Source of the DNA: Escherichia coli
Lineage (GTDB): Bacteria; Pseudomonadota; Gammaproteobacteria; Enterobacterales; Enterobacteriaceae
Direction: 5' to 3' (one strand)
NCBI RefSeq assembly: GCF_044324785.1
Contig: NZ_CP172127.1
Length of the DNA stretch: 64,000 nucleotides
In this document: positions 20,078 to 38,143 of the stretch, piece by piece
Position numbering within the stretch: position 1 is the stretch's first letter
Layout: the number at the start of each line of letters is the position of its first letter
Program-made: the position numbers and the translations under genes
Notes under the pieces: model-generated
Databases searched by the model: none
What the model was told of the DNA's origin: nothing
The model's input: only the letters and a program-made list of their open reading frames with translations

Positions 20078-22138
20078 GTGTTTTGGCGTGATATGACGTT
20101 GTCGGTCTGGCGTAAGAAGACAACTGGCCTCAAAACAAAAAAGCGTTTACTGCCGCTGGTGCTGGCAGCGGCATTATGCAGTTCACCGGTCTGGGCGGAA
20201 GAAGCCACTTTCACCGCTAATTTTAAAGATACCGACCTGAAATCGTTCATCGAAACCGTCGGCGCTAACCTTAATAAAACCATCATTATGGGGCCGGGCG
20301 TTCAGGGGAAAGTGAGTATTCGCACCATGACCCCGCTCAATGAACGCCAGTATTACCAGCTATTCCTTAACCTGCTGGAAGCACAGGGGTATGCCGTCGT
20401 ACCGATGGAAAACGACGTGCTGAAGGTGGTGAAATCCAGTGCCGCGAAAGTCGAGCCGCTGCCGCTGGTCGGTGAAGGCAGCGACAACTACGCGGGCGAT
20501 GAAATGGTCACCAAAGTCGTGCCGGTACGTAATGTGTCGGTACGCGAGCTGGCACCGATTCTGCGCCAGATGATCGACAGCGCAGGCTCAGGCAACGTTG
20601 TTAATTACGATCCCTCCAACGTGATTATGCTTACCGGACGCGCCTCAGTTGTGGAGCGCCTGACGGAAGTGATCCAGCGCGTGGATCATGCGGGTAATCG
20701 CACCGAAGAGGTGATCCCGCTGGATAACGCCTCGGCTTCGGAAATCGCCCGCGTGCTGGAAAGCCTGACGAAAAACAGCGGCGAGAACCAGCCTGCGACG
20801 CTGAAATCTCAAATTGTCGCCGACGAACGCACCAACAGTGTGATTGTCAGTGGTGACCCGGCCACGCGGGACAAAATGCGCCGCCTGATCCGTCGGCTGG
20901 ACTCAGAAATGGAGCGCAGCGGCAACAGCCAGGTTTTCTATCTCAAATACAGCAAAGCCGAAGATCTGGTCGATGTACTGAAGCAGGTCAGCGGCACGCT
21001 CACGGCGGCTAAAGAAGAGGCGGAAGGCACCGTCGGTAGCGGGCGTGAGGTTGTCTCCATCGCCGCCAGCAAACACAGTAATGCCCTGATTGTTACCGCG
21101 CCGCAGGACATCATGCAGTCGCTGCAAAGCGTGATTGAACAACTGGATATTCGCCGTGCTCAGGTGCACGTCGAGGCGTTGATCGTGGAAGTTGCCGAAG
21201 GTAGCAATATCAATTTCGGCGTGCAGTGGGCGTCGAAAGATGCCGGATTAATGCAGTTTGCTAACGGTACGCAGATCCCTATTGGCACGCTGGGTGCAGC
21301 CATTTCTCAGGCGAAACCGCAGAAAGGCTCCACGGTGATCAGTGAAAACGGCGCTACCACCATTAACCCGGATACTAACGGCGATCTCTCCACGCTCGCT
21401 CAGCTTCTTTCTGGCTTTAGCGGTACGGCGGTTGGCGTGGTGAAAGGCGACTGGATGGCGCTGGTACAGGCGGTCAAAAACGACTCCAGCTCGAACGTGC
21501 TCTCCACGCCGAGTATCACCACGCTGGACAACCAGGAAGCCTTCTTCATGGTGGGCCAGGACGTTCCGGTATTAACCGGCTCTACTGTTGGCTCTAATAA
21601 CAGCAATCCTTTCAATACGGTAGAGAGGAAAAAAGTCGGCATCATGCTGAAAGTCACGCCGCAGATTAACGAAGGAAACGCGGTACAGATGGTGATTGAG
21701 CAGGAAGTGTCGAAGGTGGAAGGACAGACCAGCCTCGATGTCGTGTTTGGCGAGCGCAAACTGAAAACCACCGTGCTGGCTAACGATGGTGAGCTGATCG
21801 TGCTTGGCGGTCTGATGGACGATCAGGCGGGAGAAAGCGTGGCGAAAGTGCCGCTGCTTGGCGATATCCCATTGATTGGTAACCTGTTTAAATCGACGGC
21901 GGATAAAAAAGAAAAACGTAACCTGATGGTATTTATCCGCCCGACCATTCTGCGTGACGGTATGGCGGCAGACGGCGTGTCGCAGCGCAAATATAACTAT
22001 ATGCGCGCCGAACAGATCTATCGCGATGAGCAAGGCTTGAGCCTGATGCCGCACACCGCGCAGCCGGTACTGCCAGCGCAAAATCAGGCTCTACCGCCAG
22101 AAGTTCGCGCGTTCCTTAATGCCGGGAGAACGCGTTAA
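20078..22138 (+). CDS. gspD: T2SS secretin GspD
   Basis: 686-aa ORF with signal peptide and secretin C-domain; GTG start with AGGAG Shine-Dalgarno at 20063-20067. Confidence 0.9.
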
Positions 22139-32246: not shown

Positions 32247-35200
32247 ATGAAATCAATATTGTATTATTTAGAGCCACGTACAGAATTAAATGACAAATTA
32301 TTTCGCTATGCAACACTACGCTCTTATCTACTACCTGAAATTGATGGCCTTAGGATAGCTGATAAGAGCCTCGATTTTAAAATGATCGTTTCTCGTACGA
32401 TTTATAATAAAGCAAAACAAAATAATTTAAAAATGGAGGGTATCGATTTTATAATTATTGATGAAGATGTATTTGAAAAGAACTCATATCTGAAGAATAT
32501 TAATGTTAGTAATGAATTATATCATGGGAATTTAAATATAAAGGCTAATGAAGAACTAAAATCAATCATATCTGCTTGCCTTCCTGTTGATTATAAACCA
32601 GATATTATTATTTCATATGAAAGCCCAGCTCCATTTTTTAAAGAGATATTTCCATCATCTTTACTTTTAAACGCTATGTTTGGAATTTTTTCAAGGGCAC
32701 CATTTCCTGCATATGGGTTATTAGACCCATGTGGTTTGTATGAATATTCATATCAATATAAATATGCTGATAAAATTCGTGCTGAGGAGATTTCAGAAGA
32801 AGAAAAGGAAGTTATAAAATTACTCAGAAGACAAAGTTCAAGAGCACTTGCTGCTTATCATCCTCTCAAGAAATATATTTCATCATTATATGAAAAATAT
32901 GATCGACTTGTTGTATTAGCATGTCAAGTGGATAACTATTTTTCTTATAATAGTTGTACCAATTATCCATCACAATATGCGATGGTGGAAGATGTTCTTT
33001 CTCAAGTTCCATCAAATATTGGTGTTATAGTTACAGAACATGGCTATAAAAGACAAATAAGTGACGAGCAAATTGAGTCTTTAAATGAAAAATACAGTAA
33101 TTTTATATATTTTTCTAAAAAAGATGTATTCACACCAAGTCAATTTATTCTTCCTTATGTAGATGGTGCTTTATCAGTCTCGTCATCGATTGGTTATCAG
33201 GCTGCTTTATGGCAGATTCCATATTTTGGTCTTGGAAAATCACAAGTCGATGTACTCTGTTCAAATACATCATTAATGAGCTTCGTTAATGATGTTGAAA
33301 AAGGCATAAAGATTGATCGTGATAATATTCTTTATGTTTTACTTTCAAAAGTTCACTTATCACATAAAAATGATTTGTTTAATGGAAAATCTTATCTAAA
33401 TAAGTTGAAGGATTTATTTAATAAGTTTACCTCTAATTGCGACGAATATGAGTATTTTAACACTAAAAAAAGTATTGATGAAGTTCGAAAAGATATCATC
33501 TGTGGCAACAGAGAATGGTTACTTAAAAAAAACTTTATTGACTCAAAATTAGTTCCTGAAGTAGACCATTTACGTGTTGCAATGTCGCATTCAAAAGCGA
33601 TCTCTTATGATCTTTTTGATACTCTTGTTGAACGTGATTTTGTTGAACCTCATGAATTATTTAATCTAATTGAATCCCGTGTACGTAATGAGTTAAACAA
33701 TAAAAACTTCCCTTTCTATTATGTAAGACGACAAGCCGAAATTGACTTGCGCAGAGAGACAAGAGGTGAGTTTGAAATTACTCTCGATGAAATTTACGAA
33801 AGATTTCCAAGATACTTTGATCTTACTTTAGAACAACTAGAGAAGATAAAAAATATAGAAATAGATGCTGAAGTCGAACTCGTTCATCCGAAAAAAGAAA
33901 TGGTTCGTGAATTTTATTTTTCTCAAATGATTTGTGAAAGTGTATCTATCATTACAGATATTTATCTTTCTCAGAATGTTATTGAGCGTATTTTACAAAA
34001 AGTAAAAATTAGTGGTTACAATAAATTATTGGTTTCAGCAGAAACTAAAACAAGAAAACATAACGGAACTATTTATCCTGAATATTTGAAATATATAAGA
34101 GATAATTTTGATATTAATGCAGGACAGGCTCTTCATGTCGGTGATAATAAACAAGCTGATGGTGATATGGCTAAAAAACATGGCATAAAAACATATGTAT
34201 TTCAAAAAGCGATTGATAATTACAAAAAATCTTTAATTGCTGATATTTTACGTTCCAGTATTAATCATCCAGGTATTTCGAGTTCTGTTATTAATGGTTT
34301 GTTTGCTAACAAATATCACGCAGGACACTGGTTTAAAATTAACAAGGAATCAATTTTTAATGCTGACGAATATAATTATGGCTATATGGCAATAGGGCCT
34401 CTTGTTGTTGGCTTTACTCAGTGGTTGTATCGGCGGGTTAATAAATTAGGTATCAAAAAATTATATTTCTTATCCCGCGATGGATGGATTCTTAAAAAAA
34501 CATTCGATTATTTTTATCCTGAATCATCATCTGGCATCAAGACCGAATACCTGTACAGCTCTCGTCGAACTGCAATGGTAGCATCGTTAAGAAATATTGA
34601 TGATATTATTGAAGTTGCCTCTCAAAACTTCAATGCTAGAAAGCTAAGTGACTTTTTATCTACTCGTTTTGGGCTGGATGTGGATACTGTTAAAAAATCT
34701 GTTCTTGAAAAATATAATTACAAGCATGACACTATTGTTTCTCCTTATTTTGAATTTGGAAAGCTGATTGGTTTTTTAAAAGATATTCATCATACAATAT
34801 TGTCTAATGCAAAAAATGAACGTGAAAGCTATATCGATTATTTACGAGAAACTGGATTTGAAAATGATTGCTTAAATGGCGGTGCTACTGTTGTTGATAT
34901 TGGTTACAGTGGTTCCATGCAATATTATTTAAAAAAAATACTGCAATGCCCTTGTGTGAACGGATTTTATTTTTTAACACATCACCATAGTCGTGATTAT
35001 TTTTCAAATGATCATTTTGAAGGTTTCTTGCAAAATCTTGATGATCATAAGATCGCTTATAGACATGGATTAAATGATCATGTGTTTATTTTTGAAGCAG
35101 CATTAAGTTCCCCTGAAGGAAGTCTGATTAAAATGGAAGGGAAAGGTCAAGAAAGAGAAATGATTTTTCTCGAGGCAGAAGAAGAGATTGTAAGAAAAAA

Positions 35201-35756
35201 TGCTCTATTAGGAACACATCGTGGCGTAATGGACTTTGTTCATGATATCAAAACTCGTTTTGGTTCTTACTTTAAATACATTGAATTTTCTCCTATTCTT
35301 TCTTCTCAACTTATTTTGAATTTTGCGAATAATCCCAACGGTATAGATGCAGGGATGTTTGCTTCTCATGAAGTCGAAAATGTTTTTGGTGGGGGGTCTG
35401 TATGCTTAATTTCGCCTTTACTAGATTGCTATAAGGACTCTAATGGCACCATTAACCCTAAAATTATCGATGAGTTATTAAAAGCATCTAAATGGAAGAG
35501 AGGTGCCAGTGCTTATTATAACTTAGTCAATGGAACTCAACCGCGAGTTAATCCTGCTAAAATGCCAGCGCCATCTGTTAACCCAGTTGTTGTGAAGCAA
35601 ACGCCACAAACTACTTATGCACATCCTTTAAAGACAACTACGCAGCGTAAACTTGCTAAGTTAAAAAAAGACCCATATTTATTCTTTAATGATTCCCAAA
35701 AACCTCTTTTAAAAAGTTTACGATTGTTCTTCAAAAATACATCAAAGCTTAATTAA
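32247..35756 (+). CDS. Putative multidomain capsule polymerase of kps region 2 (KpsC/KpsS-like glycosyltransferase domain + HAD-like phosphatase domain + uncharacterised C-terminal domain)
   Basis: 1169-aa ORF with AAAAGGAG Shine-Dalgarno; strongly AT-rich. The N-terminal part carries SVSSSIGYQAALWQIPYFGLGKS, resembling the TS..GFEALL...P.YAGWG motifs of KpsC and INSTAGISAL of KpsS in this window. Central HAD motifs DLFDTLV (33609-33629) and GDNKQADGD (about 34140-34166). Basic C-terminal tail. Confidence 0.6.
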   Translation: MKSILYYLEPRTELNDKLFRYATLRSYLLPEIDGLRIADKSLDFKMIVSRTIYNKAKQNNLKMEGIDFIIIDEDVFEKNSYLKNINVSNELYHGNLNIKANEELKSIISACLPVDYKPDIIISYESPAPFFKEIFPSSLLLNAMFGIFSRAPFPAYGLLDPCGLYEYSYQYKYADKIRAEEISEEEKEVIKLLRRQSSRALAAYHPLKKYISSLYEKYDRLVVLACQVDNYFSYNSCTNYPSQYAMVEDVLSQVPSNIGVIVTEHGYKRQISDEQIESLNEKYSNFIYFSKKDVFTPSQFILPYVDGALSVSSSIGYQAALWQIPYFGLGKSQVDVLCSNTSLMSFVNDVEKGIKIDRDNILYVLLSKVHLSHKNDLFNGKSYLNKLKDLFNKFTSNCDEYEYFNTKKSIDEVRKDIICGNREWLLKKNFIDSKLVPEVDHLRVAMSHSKAISYDLFDTLVERDFVEPHELFNLIESRVRNELNNKNFPFYYVRRQAEIDLRRETRGEFEITLDEIYERFPRYFDLTLEQLEKIKNIEIDAEVELVHPKKEMVREFYFSQMICESVSIITDIYLSQNVIERILQKVKISGYNKLLVSAETKTRKHNGTIYPEYLKYIRDNFDINAGQALHVGDNKQADGDMAKKHGIKTYVFQKAIDNYKKSLIADILRSSINHPGISSSVINGLFANKYHAGHWFKINKESIFNADEYNYGYMAIGPLVVGFTQWLYRRVNKLGIKKLYFLSRDGWILKKTFDYFYPESSSGIKTEYLYSSRRTAMVASLRNIDDIIEVASQNFNARKLSDFLSTRFGLDVDTVKKSVLEKYNYKHDTIVSPYFEFGKLIGFLKDIHHTILSNAKNERESYIDYLRETGFENDCLNGGATVVDIGYSGSMQYYLKKILQCPCVNGFYFLTHHHSRDYFSNDHFEGFLQNLDDHKIAYRHGLNDHVFIFEAALSSPEGSLIKMEGKGQEREMIFLEAEEEIVRKNALLGTHRGVMDFVHDIKTRFGSYFKYIEFSPILSSQLILNFANNPNGIDAGMFASHEVENVFGGGSVCLISPLLDCYKDSNGTINPKIIDELLKASKWKRGASAYYNLVNGTQPRVNPAKMPAPSVNPVVVKQTPQTTYAHPLKTTTQRKLAKLKKDPYLFFNDSQKPLLKSLRLFFKNTSKLN

Positions 35757-35764
35757 TATAATGT

Positions 35765-35794
35765 GAGTCGCACTATGGTGTGACTCTTTTTTAT
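35765..35794 (+). terminator. Putative intrinsic terminator between the two region 2 genes
   Basis: Hairpin agtcgcac-tatg-gtgtgact followed by a T6 run directly after the polymerase stop codon. Confidence 0.5.
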
Positions 35795-35874
35795 ATGTCA
35801 GTGATAGTTATTAATGAAATATTTAATGCGCGAAGGTGTACGATTTTTACAATATTTAGAGACTGGTGGGTCAA

Positions 35875-36885
35875 ATGAGTATTTCTTTGAAAAATATTGA
35901 TTTTGCTAAAGGTCCTGTTGATTCCCTCCATCATGATTATTACTTATGGCGAGGGAAGAACATTGAGGATAAAAGACTTTTTCTCGTTTTCTCATCTCGG
36001 GGAGCAGGTCCTGGAGAATTTAGTTTTTTCAAAACTTTTGATGCGCTTAATGTAAATGTTTTGCATGTTACACCCTCTGATTTTTCATGGTACCAAAAAG
36101 GGTTAGTCGGTTTAGGGAGTGATTTGCCTTCTGCATTTAAAGCCCTATCTGACCGAATAGATAATTTCTGTATTTATCATAAAATAAAACAAATTATCTG
36201 TGTAGGGGCTTCCATGGGAGGATATGGTGCTTTAATTTATGGGGCTTTATCTAGTAGAAAAATAAAAACAACACTTATTCTTTTTGGCACCGAAACAATA
36301 TTAAAACTTCCTTATTCTAAAAGTTCTGAGAGTGAATTTGATATTCTCAAAAAATTTAAAGATGTAAGGTTTCTAGATTATTCTGATCTTGATGTGAATA
36401 TGATATTTGGTGAGTTTGATATTGTAGATACTTATTGTGCTTTATCGATGCGACATGATCGAAATTTTTCATTTTTTTCATGCACTAGCGCCTCACATGT
36501 TGTTCCGGAATACTTAAATAGACAAATTGGAATTGTTAATTTTTTTACAGACTTCTTATCGGGTGGAAGATCTTTTATTGGAAGAGGCCACATTGCTTCT
36601 GAGCTTTATCCTGAGGATATTTCTCCTCTTCTGTTCTCGAAACAATTTACTGAGGAATACAATAATGCCCTCCTCTGTTGCTTGAAAAAATATCCTTCAT
36701 TTGGGTTTGCATGGAATAGATTAGGCGTATATTTACACAATATAGGAGATCTGGCTGGGTCTTTAGCAGCATTAAAAAGAGCATTTTTCATCAACCCTGA
36801 TTATCCAAATACAATTGAGCATCTTAACTCGGTAAGAAATAAACTAAAAACTTTTAGTTTTTATGTATACTTGTGTGAGGAATGA
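35875..36885 (+). CDS. Alpha/beta-hydrolase-fold protein of kps region 2, candidate capsule-modifying enzyme (possibly O-acetyltransferase or esterase)
   Basis: ATG 35875 (MSISLKNIDF...) 7 nt after GGTGGG; nucleophile-elbow motif GASMGG near 36201-36221; low GC like the polymerase gene. Confidence 0.5.
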   Translation: MSISLKNIDFAKGPVDSLHHDYYLWRGKNIEDKRLFLVFSSRGAGPGEFSFFKTFDALNVNVLHVTPSDFSWYQKGLVGLGSDLPSAFKALSDRIDNFCIYHKIKQIICVGASMGGYGALIYGALSSRKIKTTLILFGTETILKLPYSKSSESEFDILKKFKDVRFLDYSDLDVNMIFGEFDIVDTYCALSMRHDRNFSFFSCTSASHVVPEYLNRQIGIVNFFTDFLSGGRSFIGRGHIASELYPEDISPLLFSKQFTEEYNNALLCCLKKYPSFGFAWNRLGVYLHNIGDLAGSLAALKRAFFINPDYPNTIEHLNSVRNKLKTFSFYVYLCEE

Positions 36886-36934: not shown

Positions 36935-38143
36935 TTATAATTTTTTTACTTTTATTTGTTTTCTTACTCTATCCCCATAATAAACCCCATTAACCTGCGT
37001 CTTCACCAATAAATACCCCCGAAACTTCTTAAACAGTTTCATATCCGGTTTAAAATCGGCCTGCCAGAACTGGTGCAAATGCCCTTGATACGTCAAGCCT
37101 TTGATGTCGTACAGGGCATTGCCCATCACTTTGAGTGGTTTGTTGTGAATCAGCGCAGATATCCCCGCCGTACTGTTAATTGTCACCACCGCTTTTGCGT
37201 GGCGTAACAATTCCGGCATCGGGAGATCGTGCACATAAATGACTCGTTCCCCTAAGCCATATTCCTTACTCAACCGCTTAATTAATGGTCGATAGAGTCT
37301 GTGACCACGATCCATTGGATGGTGCTTGATCACCAAATAACTTTCTTTCGGTGCTTTACGTGAAAATGAGTACATGACTTCATTAATATAGTCACGCACA
37401 TCGTTATAATTGCTGTGGTTACGAATCTGGCTATCGTTATACACCTGCAAAACGGCAAGATAATAACGCTGATCCAGCTCATTCATTAACCTCGGCAATA
37501 CCTTACGCTGTGTTACCTTGTAAAGTTGCTTGCGCCAGTATGCACGAACCCAGCAACGTGCTTCATACCAGGGGGAAAACGATTTATGGTGGCGGTAGCG
37601 AGGGAACTCATGGCGGTAATGCCAGCCCATCAGGTAATACCACATCGCATGACCTATACGTTTCATCGTTGAAGGTTTTAAGTTCTCAACGTGCGGCGCA
37701 GGCATATCTGGTAACTTACGATAAAAATCCGGATCGCGCGGTAGCGATGAATATGCGTTTACTCCGCCTTCTTCAACGGTTATAAATTGCGGGCGTAAAT
37801 ATCCTTCTTCAAATGCCAGAAAGCGGAGCCCTTTCGACTTTGCCCAGCGTTTTGCTTCTTTATGCAATGGGCGACAGTCACCAAAACAGAGGATGGTATC
37901 AAAGTCATATTGCCGGTGGAGATCCCGTAACCATCCGGGGAACTCTTTCGGCGTTTGGTAGTAGGCCAGGTATTGTCGATGGCGGCAGTAAAAACGATCC
38001 CCACCGTTGAATACAACATTCACAGCGTTACGTCCTAATGACTCTAACCATTCGGCGACGTCATTGAAAAAAGGTCCCATCGGCCCCTGCAATAGCAGAT
38101 ATTTTTTACCGGATAATAAAACGGTTAGTGCATTACCTTGCAT
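36935..38143 (-). CDS. kpsS: Capsule biosynthesis protein KpsS (Kdo transferase for the glycolipid anchor)
   Basis: 402-aa ORF with INSTAGISALIHNKP motif; convergent with region 2, first region 1 gene encountered from the right. Confidence 0.9.
   Translation of the reverse strand: MQGNALTVLLSGKKYLLLQGPMGPFFNDVAEWLESLGRNAVNVVFNGGDRFYCRHRQYLAYYQTPKEFPGWLRDLHRQYDFDTILCFGDCRPLHKEAKRWAKSKGLRFLAFEEGYLRPQFITVEEGGVNAYSSLPRDPDFYRKLPDMPAPHVENLKPSTMKRIGHAMWYYLMGWHYRHEFPRYRHHKSFSPWYEARCWVRAYWRKQLYKVTQRKVLPRLMNELDQRYYLAVLQVYNDSQIRNHSNYNDVRDYINEVMYSFSRKAPKESYLVIKHHPMDRGHRLYRPLIKRLSKEYGLGERVIYVHDLPMPELLRHAKAVVTINSTAGISALIHNKPLKVMGNALYDIKGLTYQGHLHQFWQADFKPDMKLFKKFRGYLLVKTQVNGVYYGDRVRKQIKVKKL

What the first reader, a model, noticed from the sequence alone, without database searches (positions are those of the whole stretch)
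35875..36885. Alpha/beta-hydrolase-fold protein as candidate capsule O-acetyltransferase or esterase
The second region 2 gene has a GxSxG nucleophile elbow (GASMGG) and no membrane or hexapeptide-repeat features. As I recall, the capsule O-acetyltransferase of Neisseria meningitidis serogroup A (CsaC) uses an alpha/beta-hydrolase fold, so this protein could modify the polymer rather than degrade it. An intrinsic terminator (35765-35794) sits between the polymerase gene and this gene, which could make the modification substoichiometric or separately regulated.
Basis: inference. Interest (0 to 1): 0.5.

Follow-up and report, generated by a model that had tools for sequence, protein, structure and literature searches.

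The report
Hydrolase-fold, TPR-tailed capsule modifying enzyme candidate
The second serotype-specific gene of this E. coli capsule locus (catalogue type K107) encodes a cytoplasmic serine-hydrolase-fold enzyme with a short protein-docking (TPR) tail; it most likely adds acetyl groups to the sugar capsule, a change that can alter immune recognition, but this has not been tested.

Summary
ORF 35875-36885 (+) is a real gene, present at 95-99% identity in 21 of 5,426 complete E. coli genomes. It is the second of two region-2 genes in a group 2 kps locus that matches catalogue type K107, whose polysaccharide structure is unknown.

An AlphaFold model (pLDDT 84.5) shows a compact alpha/beta-hydrolase domain. 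GASMGG Ser113 follows strand 5, and invariant His208 follows strand 8. Glu180 and Asp185 after strand 7 are also invariant.

The gene belongs to an uncharacterised family with no Pfam model. Members sit beside KrkA-like Kdo/ribose polymerases in many genera, and one lies in the E. coli K24 locus.

My best reading, at about 0.55, is an acetyl-CoA-dependent polymer O-acetyltransferase docked by its TPR, as in TviD of the Vi antigen. Three facts count against it: one locus also carries a Vat-type acetyltransferase, related polymerases work without this protein, and the acetylation status of K24 is unverified.

The terminator hairpin is real but lies in an RfaH/ops-controlled operon.

The parts
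35875..36885 (+). Gene for the 336-aa alpha/beta-hydrolase + TPR protein (catalogue ORF K107_9; 329 aa in other strains)
   Evidence: ORF and translation. 99% identical to RefSeq WP_000028051.1 in 21 complete genomes.
35875..36579 (+). Catalytic alpha/beta-hydrolase domain (aa 1-235)
36205..36222 (+). Nucleophile elbow G111-A-S113-M-G-G116
   Evidence: It lies directly after strand 106-112 and before helix 114-125 in the model. G111, S113, M114 and G115 are invariant.
36412..36429 (+). Acid-residue motif E180-F-D182-I-V-D185 after strand 7 (candidate triad acid)
   Evidence: G179, E180 and D185 are invariant in 19-25 relatives, while D182 varies. Strand 173-179 precedes the motif.
36496..36498 (+). 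His208 codon (candidate triad base)
   Evidence: Invariant in alignment A4. It lies in the loop after strand 198-203.
36292..36294 (+). Glu140 codon, just after strand 6, in the place where CsaC has Gln138 (motif comparison only)
   Evidence: Invariant in the close family A2 and variable in the wider family. The CsaC family has an invariant 'P-Q' right after the same strand.
36589..36879 (+). C-terminal TPR-like helical domain (aa ~239-335)
   Evidence: Helices 239-335 in the model. The family profile matches OGT/SPINDLY TPRs at E 6e-15. Pfam TPR_2/TPR_1 hits are weak. The catalogue lists InterPro TPR-like 241-329.
36841..36854 (+). Site of a 7-bp deletion (one AAACTAA unit) specific to this window, changing the last residues
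   Evidence: Alignment with ST131 strain 2822. All 21 genome copies span 1158-1165 bases against the 1151-base query.
35765..35792 (+). Intrinsic-terminator-like hairpin plus T6 between the polymerase gene and this gene
   Evidence: Hairpins of unrelated sequence occupy the same position in Kluyvera, Rahnella-like and Atlantibacter loci.
35865..35870 (+). Shine-Dalgarno-like GGTGGG, 4 nt before the ATG
32247..35756 (+). Neighbouring 1169-aa polymerase (K107_10): KrkA-like Kdo-transferase module plus PRPP ribofuranosyltransferase and HAD phosphatase. It makes the presumed substrate polymer.
   Evidence: aa 424-786 match Hib Bcs3 at E 3.9e-28. HAD hits at aa 450-655. Homologues carry Pfam Capsule_synth. 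Literature: PMC12887879 and PMC13171606.
30570..30577 (+). ops element GGCGGTAG upstream of kpsM (RfaH loading site for the region 3 to region 2 transcript)
   Evidence: Its role follows from established knowledge of group 2 kps regulation.

Best explanation
[quoted passage not shown] I propose that it O-acetylates, or otherwise O-acylates, the nascent K107 capsule polymer, which is predicted to have a ribofuranose-Kdo backbone made by the adjacent KrkA-like polymerase.

Proposed mechanism, by analogy with CsaC:
1. Ser113 in the GASMGG elbow is acetylated by acetyl-CoA.
2. His208, with Glu180 or Asp185 as the acid, activates a sugar hydroxyl of the polymer, which takes the acetyl group.
3. [quoted passage not shown] It docks the enzyme onto the polymerase or the kps assembly complex, so that modification is coupled to synthesis before export. 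TviD does this in Vi antigen synthesis.

Shown here: the fold, the conserved residues at canonical positions, the cytoplasmic character, the TPR domain, and conserved adjacency to capsule polymerase genes.

Inferred: the acyl donor, the acceptor and its position, transferase rather than hydrolase chemistry, and the docking role of the TPR.
For: 1. Fold and catalytic residues. AF2 gives pLDDT 84.5 and pTM 0.82, with strand 5 - Ser113 - helix, strand 7 then E180/D185, and strand 8 then H208. These residues are invariant down to 25% identity.

3. Precedents. CsaC and OatC are alpha/beta-hydrolase capsule O-acetyltransferases. K15 ORF5 is predicted to be one (PMC7501274, PMC7387560). TviD combines a hydrolase-fold catalytic domain with a C-terminal TPR that binds the polymerase (PMC8760489).

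4. Context. Region 2 has only two genes, a polymerase and this one. In the related K13 and K20 loci the small partner gene is an acetyltransferase, and acetylation is the only difference between K13, K20 and K23.

5. Synteny. Relatives lie next to KrkA-like polymerases in E. coli, Kluyvera, Atlantibacter, Rahnella-like, Cupriavidus and Pantoea loci and in two metagenomic contigs. In Vibrio hyugaensis both genes are probably on the same 39.6-kb contig, judged from matching contig lengths only. Gene orientation varies between loci.

6. Dispensability. Polymerases 48% and 28% identical occur without this protein in Aeromonas and Chromobacterium. This fits a decorating enzyme rather than a core one.

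7. Location. No signal peptide or membrane segment was found. The protein therefore shares the compartment of acetyl-CoA and the nascent polymer.
Against: - There is no experimental evidence, and the K107 polysaccharide structure is unknown.
- CsaC's Gln138/His201 extension is not reproduced. The close family has Glu140, and that position varies in the wider family.
- In locus L013 a relative co-occurs with a Vat/CatB-type O-acetyltransferase beside a KrkA-like polymerase. The alpha/beta-hydrolase protein is therefore not simply a replacement for the hexapeptide enzyme.
- A clear family member (hhalign 99.9%, E 3.5e-31) is K24_9 in the E. coli K24 locus. As far as I recall, the published K24 repeat is Kdo plus glycerol phosphate. 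I could not verify whether it carries O-acetyl.
- The only recurrent, weak NCBIfam capsule hit is XcbB/CpsF. XcbB belongs to the meningococcal serogroup X capsule, which as far as I recall is not O-acetylated, and its function is still unknown.
Confidence: 0.55

Rival explanations
1. It is an accessory assembly factor, not an acyltransferase. In this reading the TPR tail and hydrolase-like domain act in priming, chain-length control, or coupling of polymerase to export in ABC-transporter capsule systems. The Ser-His-acid site would serve another reaction or substrate, for example a lipid or linker ester.
For: The family travels with different polymerase lineages: the Atlantibacter protein is 43% identical while its polymerase is about 30% identical. 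It occurs with a quite different K24 polymerase set (GT29 plus TagF-like). It co-occurs with a dedicated Vat-type acetyltransferase in L013. Weak recurrent similarity points to XcbB/CpsF, capsule proteins of unknown function. TPR domains modulate processivity and priming in other capsule polymerases (PMC11666461).
Against: Polymerases 48% and 28% identical function in loci without it, so it is not a general requirement. Strict conservation of a canonical nucleophile elbow, a His and acidic residues argues for ester or acyl chemistry. No such role is known for any alpha/beta-hydrolase in kps systems.
Confidence: 0.2
2. It is an esterase that removes or edits ester groups in the cytoplasm. The target could be the polymer (O-deacetylase), a precursor, or an acyl-thioester.
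For: The best structural and sequence matches are esterases and lipases, such as EstA 4rot, carboxylesterases and monoglyceride lipase. CsaC itself has an esterase-like oxyanion loop and hydrolyses acetyl-CoA slowly.
Against: The K107 locus holds no acetyltransferase that would make a substrate for it. The protein has no signal peptide, so it cannot act on exported capsule. Known capsule-locus alpha/beta-hydrolases with assigned function are transferases.
Confidence: 0.1
3. It transfers a substituent other than acetyl, such as propionyl, another short acyl group, or an aminoacyl group, by the same ping-pong serine mechanism.
For: The architecture and triad are the same as in the main explanation. 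From my own knowledge, unverified here, some E. coli K antigens such as K14 and K52 carry O-propionyl besides O-acetyl. The active-site extension differs from CsaC.
Against: Nothing in the sequence points to a particular donor, and acetyl is by far the commonest ester on Kdo/ribose K antigens.
Confidence: 0.1

Closest known systems
CsaC (SacC/MynC), capsule O-acetyltransferase of Neisseria meningitidis serogroup A (PDB 6YUO)
   Different: Identity over the aligned part is only 13%, and the profile E-value is 0.019. Gln138 and His201 of the extended triad are not conserved; this protein has Glu140, and Asp185 or Ile183 where His201 would fall (alternative motif alignments). CsaC has no TPR domain. 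Its substrate is a ManNAc-1-phosphate polymer, not a Rib-Kdo polymer.
TviD, Vi antigen O-acetyltransferase of Salmonella Typhi
   Same: It has a two-part architecture in an ABC-transporter capsule system: an N-terminal hydrolase-fold acyltransferase domain and a C-terminal TPR domain. The TPR binds the polymerase (TviE) and is dispensable for catalysis. It is a decorating enzyme that is not needed for polymerisation.
   Different: TviD is modelled as an SGNH hydrolase with a Cys-His (Asp) site and is 831 aa long with nine TPRs and membrane association. The protein here is a classical alpha/beta-hydrolase with a GxSxG serine, 336 aa, about two to three TPR-like repeats, and no predicted membrane element.
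OatC (CssE) of serogroup C meningococci and the predicted K15 ORF5 of E. coli
   Same: Both are alpha/beta-hydrolase-fold proteins with a GxSxGG elbow and a Ser-Asp-His triad, proposed or shown to O-acetylate capsule polymers.
   Different: K15 ORF5 falls in Pfam UPF0227 with Ser179/Asp253/His281. The protein here matches no dedicated Pfam family. I had no sequences for a direct comparison.
Vat/CatB-type hexapeptide acetyltransferases of the K13/K20 loci ('vatD')
   Same: They occupy the same genomic slot, as the small partner gene of a KrkA-type Rib-Kdo polymerase, where they determine the O-acetyl pattern.
   Different: The fold is unrelated (left-handed beta-helix). In L013 both types occur together.
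Asp2 (accessory Sec O-acetyltransferase) and XcbB/CpsF capsule proteins
   Same: Weak, recurrent HMM matches occur around the region from strand 3 to the nucleophile elbow. The best is family member P0026 against Asp2, E 1.3e-7 over about 90 residues. Asp2 is an esterase-like Ser/acid/His enzyme that O-acetylates GlcNAc.
   Different: Scores of 12-31 bits are far below the curated cut-offs of 125 and 210 bits. The biological systems differ, and the function of XcbB is unknown.

Membership tests
alpha/beta-hydrolase fold superfamily | Central beta-sheet flanked by helices, with structural similarity to known members | tested here: met
alpha/beta-hydrolase fold superfamily | Nucleophile in a Sm-x-Nu-x-Sm elbow between strand 5 and the following helix | tested here: met
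   G111-A-S113-M-G115 sits between strand 106-112 and helix 114-125 and is invariant.
alpha/beta-hydrolase fold superfamily | Catalytic His in the loop after the last core strand | tested here: met
   H208 follows strand 198-203 and is invariant in A4.
alpha/beta-hydrolase fold superfamily | Catalytic acid after strand 7 (or strand 6), within hydrogen-bonding distance of the His | tested here: inconclusive
   E180 and D185 are invariant and D182 varies. E140 after strand 6 is conserved only in the close family.
CsaC-type capsule O-acetyltransferases | Significant sequence homology to CsaC | tested here: inconclusive
CsaC-type capsule O-acetyltransferases | Gln138 (with His201 and Tyr79) extending the triad; Gln is 100% conserved in CsaC homologues | tested here: not met
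   By motif comparison, the position after strand 6 is Glu140 in the close family and N/D/K/E in the wider family. An aromatic-Tyr pair (W72-Y73) does parallel Y79-Y80.
CsaC-type capsule O-acetyltransferases | Acetyl-CoA-dependent acetyl-serine intermediate and transfer to capsule polymer | not testable with these tools
   This needs biochemistry.
TviD-like O-acetyltransferases | SGNH-type fold with block I nucleophile and block V DxxH | tested here: not met
   The fold is a classical alpha/beta-hydrolase with GxSxG. No SGNH structures appear among the top matches.
TviD-like O-acetyltransferases | C-terminal TPR domain following the catalytic domain | tested here: met
   Helical repeats 239-335. 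TPR profile matches at E 6e-15.
Hexapeptide-repeat (LbH) acetyltransferases | Tandem [LIV][GAED]xx[STAV]x repeats / Pfam Hexapep | tested here: not met
   Two isolated pattern matches and no Hexapep hit.
XcbB/CpsF family (NCBIfam NF033892) | Score above the curated cut-off (125 bits) | tested here: not met
   14.9 bits, E 0.013, over 21 residues at the elbow.
Accessory Sec protein Asp2 (TIGR03712) | Score above the curated cut-off (210.75 bits) | tested here: not met
   12.6 bits, E 0.053.
E. coli group 2 capsule locus, catalogue type K107 | kpsFEDUCS / kpsMT framework with a 1169-aa HAD-containing ORF and a 329-aa alpha/beta-hydrolase + TPR ORF | tested here: met
   Gene order and sizes. The catalogue entries K107_10 (1169 aa, HAD 450-655) and K107_9 (329 aa, alpha/beta-hydrolase 21-144, TPR 241-329) match. 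I did not align the reference sequence itself.

The most novel reading that the evidence does not exclude
The alpha/beta-hydrolase + TPR family, which includes K107_9 and K24_9, may not be an O-acetyltransferase family at all. It could be a previously unrecognised class of capsule-assembly enzyme for ABC-transporter capsules. For example, it could act on an ester in the lipid/linker end or control priming or termination of the polymer, recruited to different polymerases through its TPR tail. That would explain why it coexists with a dedicated acetyltransferase in one locus and appears with unrelated polymerase types.
Probability: 0.12. Interest if true: 0.75.

Novelty: new variant of a known kind. 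Interest (0 to 1): 0.42.

Why it matters
K107 is a newly catalogued E. coli capsule type. It occurs in ST131 bloodstream isolates and was reported as positively associated with invasive disease, yet its polysaccharide structure is unknown.

O-acetylation often decides serological identity, as with K13, K20 and K23, and it affects vaccine epitope quality, as with serogroup A meningococci and the Vi antigen. Knowing which gene decorates the polymer therefore matters for genotype-to-serotype typing and for glycoconjugate design.

The protein also represents a sizeable uncharacterised family: 835 cluster representatives at E <= 1e-10, no Pfam model, all annotated 'hypothetical' or 'TPR protein'. 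Assigning one member would annotate many capsule loci, including E. coli K24.

For a specialist the result is expected rather than surprising. Alpha/beta-hydrolase capsule O-acetyltransferases and TPR-docked acetyltransferases are both known, and the domain content of this ORF is already listed in a 2026 catalogue.

Tried and rejected
1. Genome scan. 

2. Residue-by-residue alignment to CsaC. The PDB search lists SacC only at rank 14, so its alignment is not printed. The CsaC paper's Supplementary Data 1 is held only as alternate alignment blocks: residues 28-52, 99-127 and 168-197 are missing. hmmsearch and hmmalign on the X-padded sequence and on fragments gave nothing usable, apart from one strand-4 anchor. 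The E140/Q138 and W72-Y73/Y79 parallels therefore rest on motif comparison only.

3. Model coordinates. They are not exposed, so I could not measure triad geometry.

4. P0016. I suspected this 346-aa protein was catalogue ORF K16_7. It is not: it has no E. coli match, its neighbour is unrelated to the polymerase, and it appears degenerate (GATMGG, no His).

5. KrkA structures. The polymerase N-terminal module gave no PDB sequence hit even at E 10, so I could not use KrkA GT140 structures for a direct test.

6. K24 acetylation. A literature search did not settle whether the K24 polysaccharide is O-acetylated.

7. Lyso-phosphatidylglycerol idea. I considered that the enzyme might generate the lyso-phosphatidylglycerol anchor. 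I rejected this because that step should be common to all group 2 loci, whereas this gene is serotype-specific and absent from most.

8. NCBIfam hits. The Asp2 and XcbB hits are recurrent but far below cut-off and mostly confined to the elbow. I treat them as a lead, not as evidence of membership.
Full report
**What is at the coordinates**

The window between about 29.5 and 45 kb is an E. coli group 2 capsule (kps) locus next to gspK/L/M. The order is kpsM (ATG about 30610-31386), kpsT (31383-32060), a 1169-aa ORF (32247-35756) and the target ORF (35875-36885), all on the plus strand. kpsS, kpsC, kpsU, kpsD, kpsE and kpsF follow on the minus strand.

The two region-2 genes have 31-34% GC, against 45-51% for kpsM, kpsS and kpsC. 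The target begins at ATG 35875, behind a GGTGGG ribosome-binding site, and ends at TGA 36885.

Megablast finds the gene at 95-99% identity in 21 of 5,426 complete E. coli genomes, always on the chromosome and always annotated 'hypothetical protein'. Carriers include O25b:H4-ST131 blood isolates.

This window's copy lacks one unit of a tandem AAACTAA repeat near the 3' end. The protein is therefore 336 aa instead of 329 aa, with a different tail beyond the last helix.

**Which capsule type this is**

[quoted passage not shown] That entry has K107_10 (1169 aa, HAD 450-655) and K107_9 (329 aa, alpha/beta-hydrolase superfamily 21-144, TPR-like 241-329). It is a group 2A locus of about 14.3 kb, and its polysaccharide structure is unknown. 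The main text of the catalogue reports it as positively associated with invasive disease.

The 1169-aa neighbour belongs to the KrkA kind of polymerase (PMC12887879). These have an N-terminal retaining Kdo-transferase module fused to a PRPP-dependent ribofuranosyltransferase and a HAD phosphatase. Residues 424-786 match the corresponding part of Hib Bcs3 at E 3.9e-28. HAD models hit residues 450-655. Several homologues carry Pfam Capsule_synth. The presumed product is therefore a ribofuranose-Kdo polymer.

In the K13, K20 and K23 relatives of this system, the serotypes differ only in O-acetylation. The small partner gene of the polymerase there is a hexapeptide ('vatD') acetyltransferase.

**The protein itself**

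Pfam and NCBIfam give only weak generic hits: Abhydrolase_1 at i-E 0.0027, TPR_2 at 0.022, XcbB/CpsF at 0.013 and Asp2 at 0.053.

An AlphaFold2 model built on 12 homologues has mean pLDDT 84.5 and pTM 0.82. It shows the canonical alpha/beta-hydrolase order:
- strand 106-112, then Ser113, then helix 114-125;
- strand 131-137;
- strand 173-179;
- strand 198-203;
- an all-helical region from 239 to 335.

In alignments reaching 25% identity the invariant residues are F51, W72, G111, S113, M114, G115, G179, E180, D185 and H208. Ser113 and His208 are therefore at the textbook nucleophile and base positions. The acid is Glu180 or Asp185. Asp182, which aligns with the usual G-x-x-D position, is variable. 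I could not settle this because model coordinates are not exposed.

There is no hydrophobic segment outside the fold core, no signal peptide and no hexapeptide repeat. The C-terminal ~95 residues are TPR-like: the family profile matches the TPR arrays of SPINDLY and OGT at E 6e-15 to 3e-11.

**Comparison with known structures**

CsaC's special feature is a Gln138/His201/Tyr79 extension of the triad, with Gln138 fully conserved among its homologues. It is not reproduced here. Motif comparison places Glu140 of the close family at the Gln138 position just after strand 6, and that position varies in the wider family. An aromatic-Tyr pair (W72-Y73) does parallel Y79-Y80. I therefore do not file the protein as a CsaC family member.

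**The family and its genomic company**

A profile search of 1.84 billion cluster representatives finds 835 proteins at E <= 1e-10 and 38 at E <= 1e-30. Some of these match through the TPR part only. Many of the listed hits are 320-420 aa with the same hydrolase-plus-TPR architecture, and there are a few fusions. None carries an informative name, and no Pfam family covers the domain.

Close relatives lie directly next to KrkA-like polymerase genes inside kps-type loci in these places:
- Kluyvera intermedia;
- Cupriavidus taiwanensis (megaplasmid);
- Rahnella-like contigs;
- an enterobacterial metagenome contig;
- Atlantibacter hermannii;
- Pantoea, where the 392-aa neighbour gives hhalign 99.65%.

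In Vibrio hyugaensis both genes appear to be on the same contig, judged from matching contig lengths only. Gene orientation may be co-directional, convergent or divergent. Adjacency kept through rearrangement argues for a functional link.

The link is not obligatory. Polymerases 48% identical (Aeromonas veronii) and 28% identical (Chromobacterium violaceum) stand alone. This is what one expects of a decorating enzyme.

The partner is also not tied to one polymerase lineage. In Atlantibacter the hydrolase is 43% identical while the polymerase is only about 30% identical.

**A second E. coli member**

Foldseek against AFDB50 pointed to a 385-aa 'TPR repeat-containing protein' of E. coli O83:H1 NRG 857C (E 8.7e-17, TM 0.72). 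I located it at NC_017634.1 3096501-3097658, in region 2 of that strain's kps locus. Its neighbours are a TagD-like glycerol-3-phosphate cytidylyltransferase, a GT29 protein and a TagF-like glycerophosphotransferase.

This gene set equals catalogue type K24, with K24_9 at 385 aa and K24_10 at 396 aa. O83:K24 is a classical serotype pairing. hhalign of the family profile against this protein gives 99.86% and E 3.5e-31, with the GxSMGG, GE..D..D and His motifs intact. The family therefore also serves a Kdo/glycerol-phosphate capsule.

**Mechanistic reading**

The most economical explanation is a CsaC-like ping-pong O-acetyltransferase. Acetyl-CoA acetylates Ser113. His208 then activates a hydroxyl of the nascent polymer. 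The TPR tail docks the enzyme to the polymerase or assembly complex.

The architectural precedent is TviD of the Vi antigen. It has an N-terminal hydrolase-fold O-acetyltransferase domain and a C-terminal TPR. The TPR is needed for binding the polymerase TviE and for membrane association, but not for catalysis, and TviD is dispensable for polymerisation (PMC8760489).

The cytoplasmic location and the absence of any other modifying gene in K107 region 2 favour a transferase over an esterase.

**Counter-evidence, stated plainly**

- In metagenomic locus L013 a family member lies between a KrkA-like polymerase and a Vat/CatB-type O-acetyltransferase. The two are therefore not simple alternatives. 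Either two sites are acetylated or the hydrolase does something else.
- I could not verify whether the K24 polymer is O-acetylated. If it is not, the family-wide acetyltransferase reading fails.
- The only capsule-related NCBIfam model that recurs, weakly, is XcbB/CpsF. XcbB belongs to the serogroup X capsule, which as far as I recall is not O-acetylated, and its function remains unknown.
- The fold comparison cannot separate transferases from hydrolases.

I therefore give the acetyl/acyl-transferase explanation about 0.55 to 0.65 in total, counting non-acetyl donors. I give an unknown assembly role about 0.2 and an esterase about 0.1.

**The terminator**

The hairpin at 35765-35786 with a T6 tract is real: -16.8 kcal/mol, z = -5.2. 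A strong hairpin of unrelated sequence sits immediately after the polymerase stop codon in the Kluyvera, Rahnella-like and Atlantibacter loci as well. Each is stronger than all 100 shuffles, although only the E. coli and Atlantibacter hairpins are followed by a clear T tract. The position therefore looks selected.

However, the ops element GGCGGTAG lies about 33 nt upstream of kpsM. In group 2 loci, RfaH loaded there carries transcription from region 3 through region 2 (established knowledge). The hairpin may attenuate, stabilise or process the transcript. Sub-stoichiometric modification is possible but not implied.

**Verdict**

The gene is an ordinary-looking but uncharacterised capsule-decorating enzyme candidate. 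I classify it as a new variant (alpha/beta-hydrolase catalytic domain plus a short TPR tail) of a known kind (hydrolase-fold capsule O-acetyltransferases).

Its domain content is already tabulated in the 2026 catalogue. The following did not appear in the papers and supplementary text I could read:
- the family-level conservation of the catalytic residues;
- the conserved pairing with KrkA-like polymerases across genera;
- the membership of K24_9;
- the TviD-like architecture;
- the specific counter-evidence listed above.

Noticed in passing
window 36841-36854: This window's copy of the gene has lost one unit of a tandem AAACTAA repeat relative to all 21 complete-genome copies. The C-terminus changes from ...KLKTKNF* to ...KLKTFSFYVYLCEE*. 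Short tandem repeats at gene ends can be slip-prone.
   Followed up: partly
L002:9850-9894, L004:9824-9868, L012:9910-9954 (and window 35757-35801): A strong stem-loop (-15 to -20 kcal/mol, stronger than all 100 shuffles in each case) sits directly after the polymerase stop codon in four loci from different genera. The sequences are unrelated, and only two have a T tract. The position looks selected, perhaps as an attenuator or mRNA stabiliser.
   Followed up: partly
window 30570-30577 (+); also 37591-37598 (+) and 22091-22098 (-): The ops motif GGCGGTAG lies about 33 nt upstream of the kpsM ATG, as expected for RfaH control. Two further copies, one inside kpsS on the opposite strand and one in the gsp region, are within chance expectation (3 found, 1.3 expected).
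   Followed up: no
L020 (NC_017634.1 3093772-3100639): E. coli NRG 857C (O83:H1) carries a K24-type region 2. It holds a TagD-like gene mis-annotated as 'pantoate--beta-alanine ligase', plus GT29, a TagF-like gene, the family member K24_9 and a 327-aa hypothetical. An IS256-like ISEc39 is inserted between region 2 and kpsS.
   Followed up: partly
L014:1600-4261: A 366-aa family member (P0020, 27-30% identical) lies next to a phage holin/lysozyme cassette and near a glycosyltransferase and a methyltransferase. This suggests a prophage-borne copy, reminiscent of phage-encoded capsule or O-antigen acetyltransferases such as NeuO.
   Followed up: no
proteins P0082, P0026, P0024: Unusual fusions occur in the family. 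P0082 (1009 aa) is an arylsulfatase-like domain plus TPR plus this hydrolase domain. P0026 (669 aa) seems to carry two tandem hydrolase domains. P0024 (946 aa) has a long TPR array.
   Followed up: no
L013:2901-3584: A Vat/CatB-type hexapeptide O-acetyltransferase lies immediately downstream of a family member and a KrkA-like polymerase, in a locus with a kdsB-kdsC fusion, kpsF and kpsMT. Both acetyltransferase types may act on one polymer.
   Followed up: partly
window 35640-35756 (polymerase C-terminus): The polymerase ends in a basic tail, ...QRKLAKLKKDPYLFFNDSQKPLLKSLRLFFKNTSKLN. It looks like the amphipathic or basic C-terminal helices described for other capsule polymerases, and it is a candidate membrane-contact or TPR-contact element.
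   Followed up: no
window 29500-30500 and 45000-45500: Two AT-rich stretches (GC 0.30-0.40) flank the kps locus, one between yghD and kpsM and one beyond kpsF. In related genomes the kpsF side holds an IS110 remnant near tRNA-Phe. This is consistent with an island boundary.
   Followed up: no
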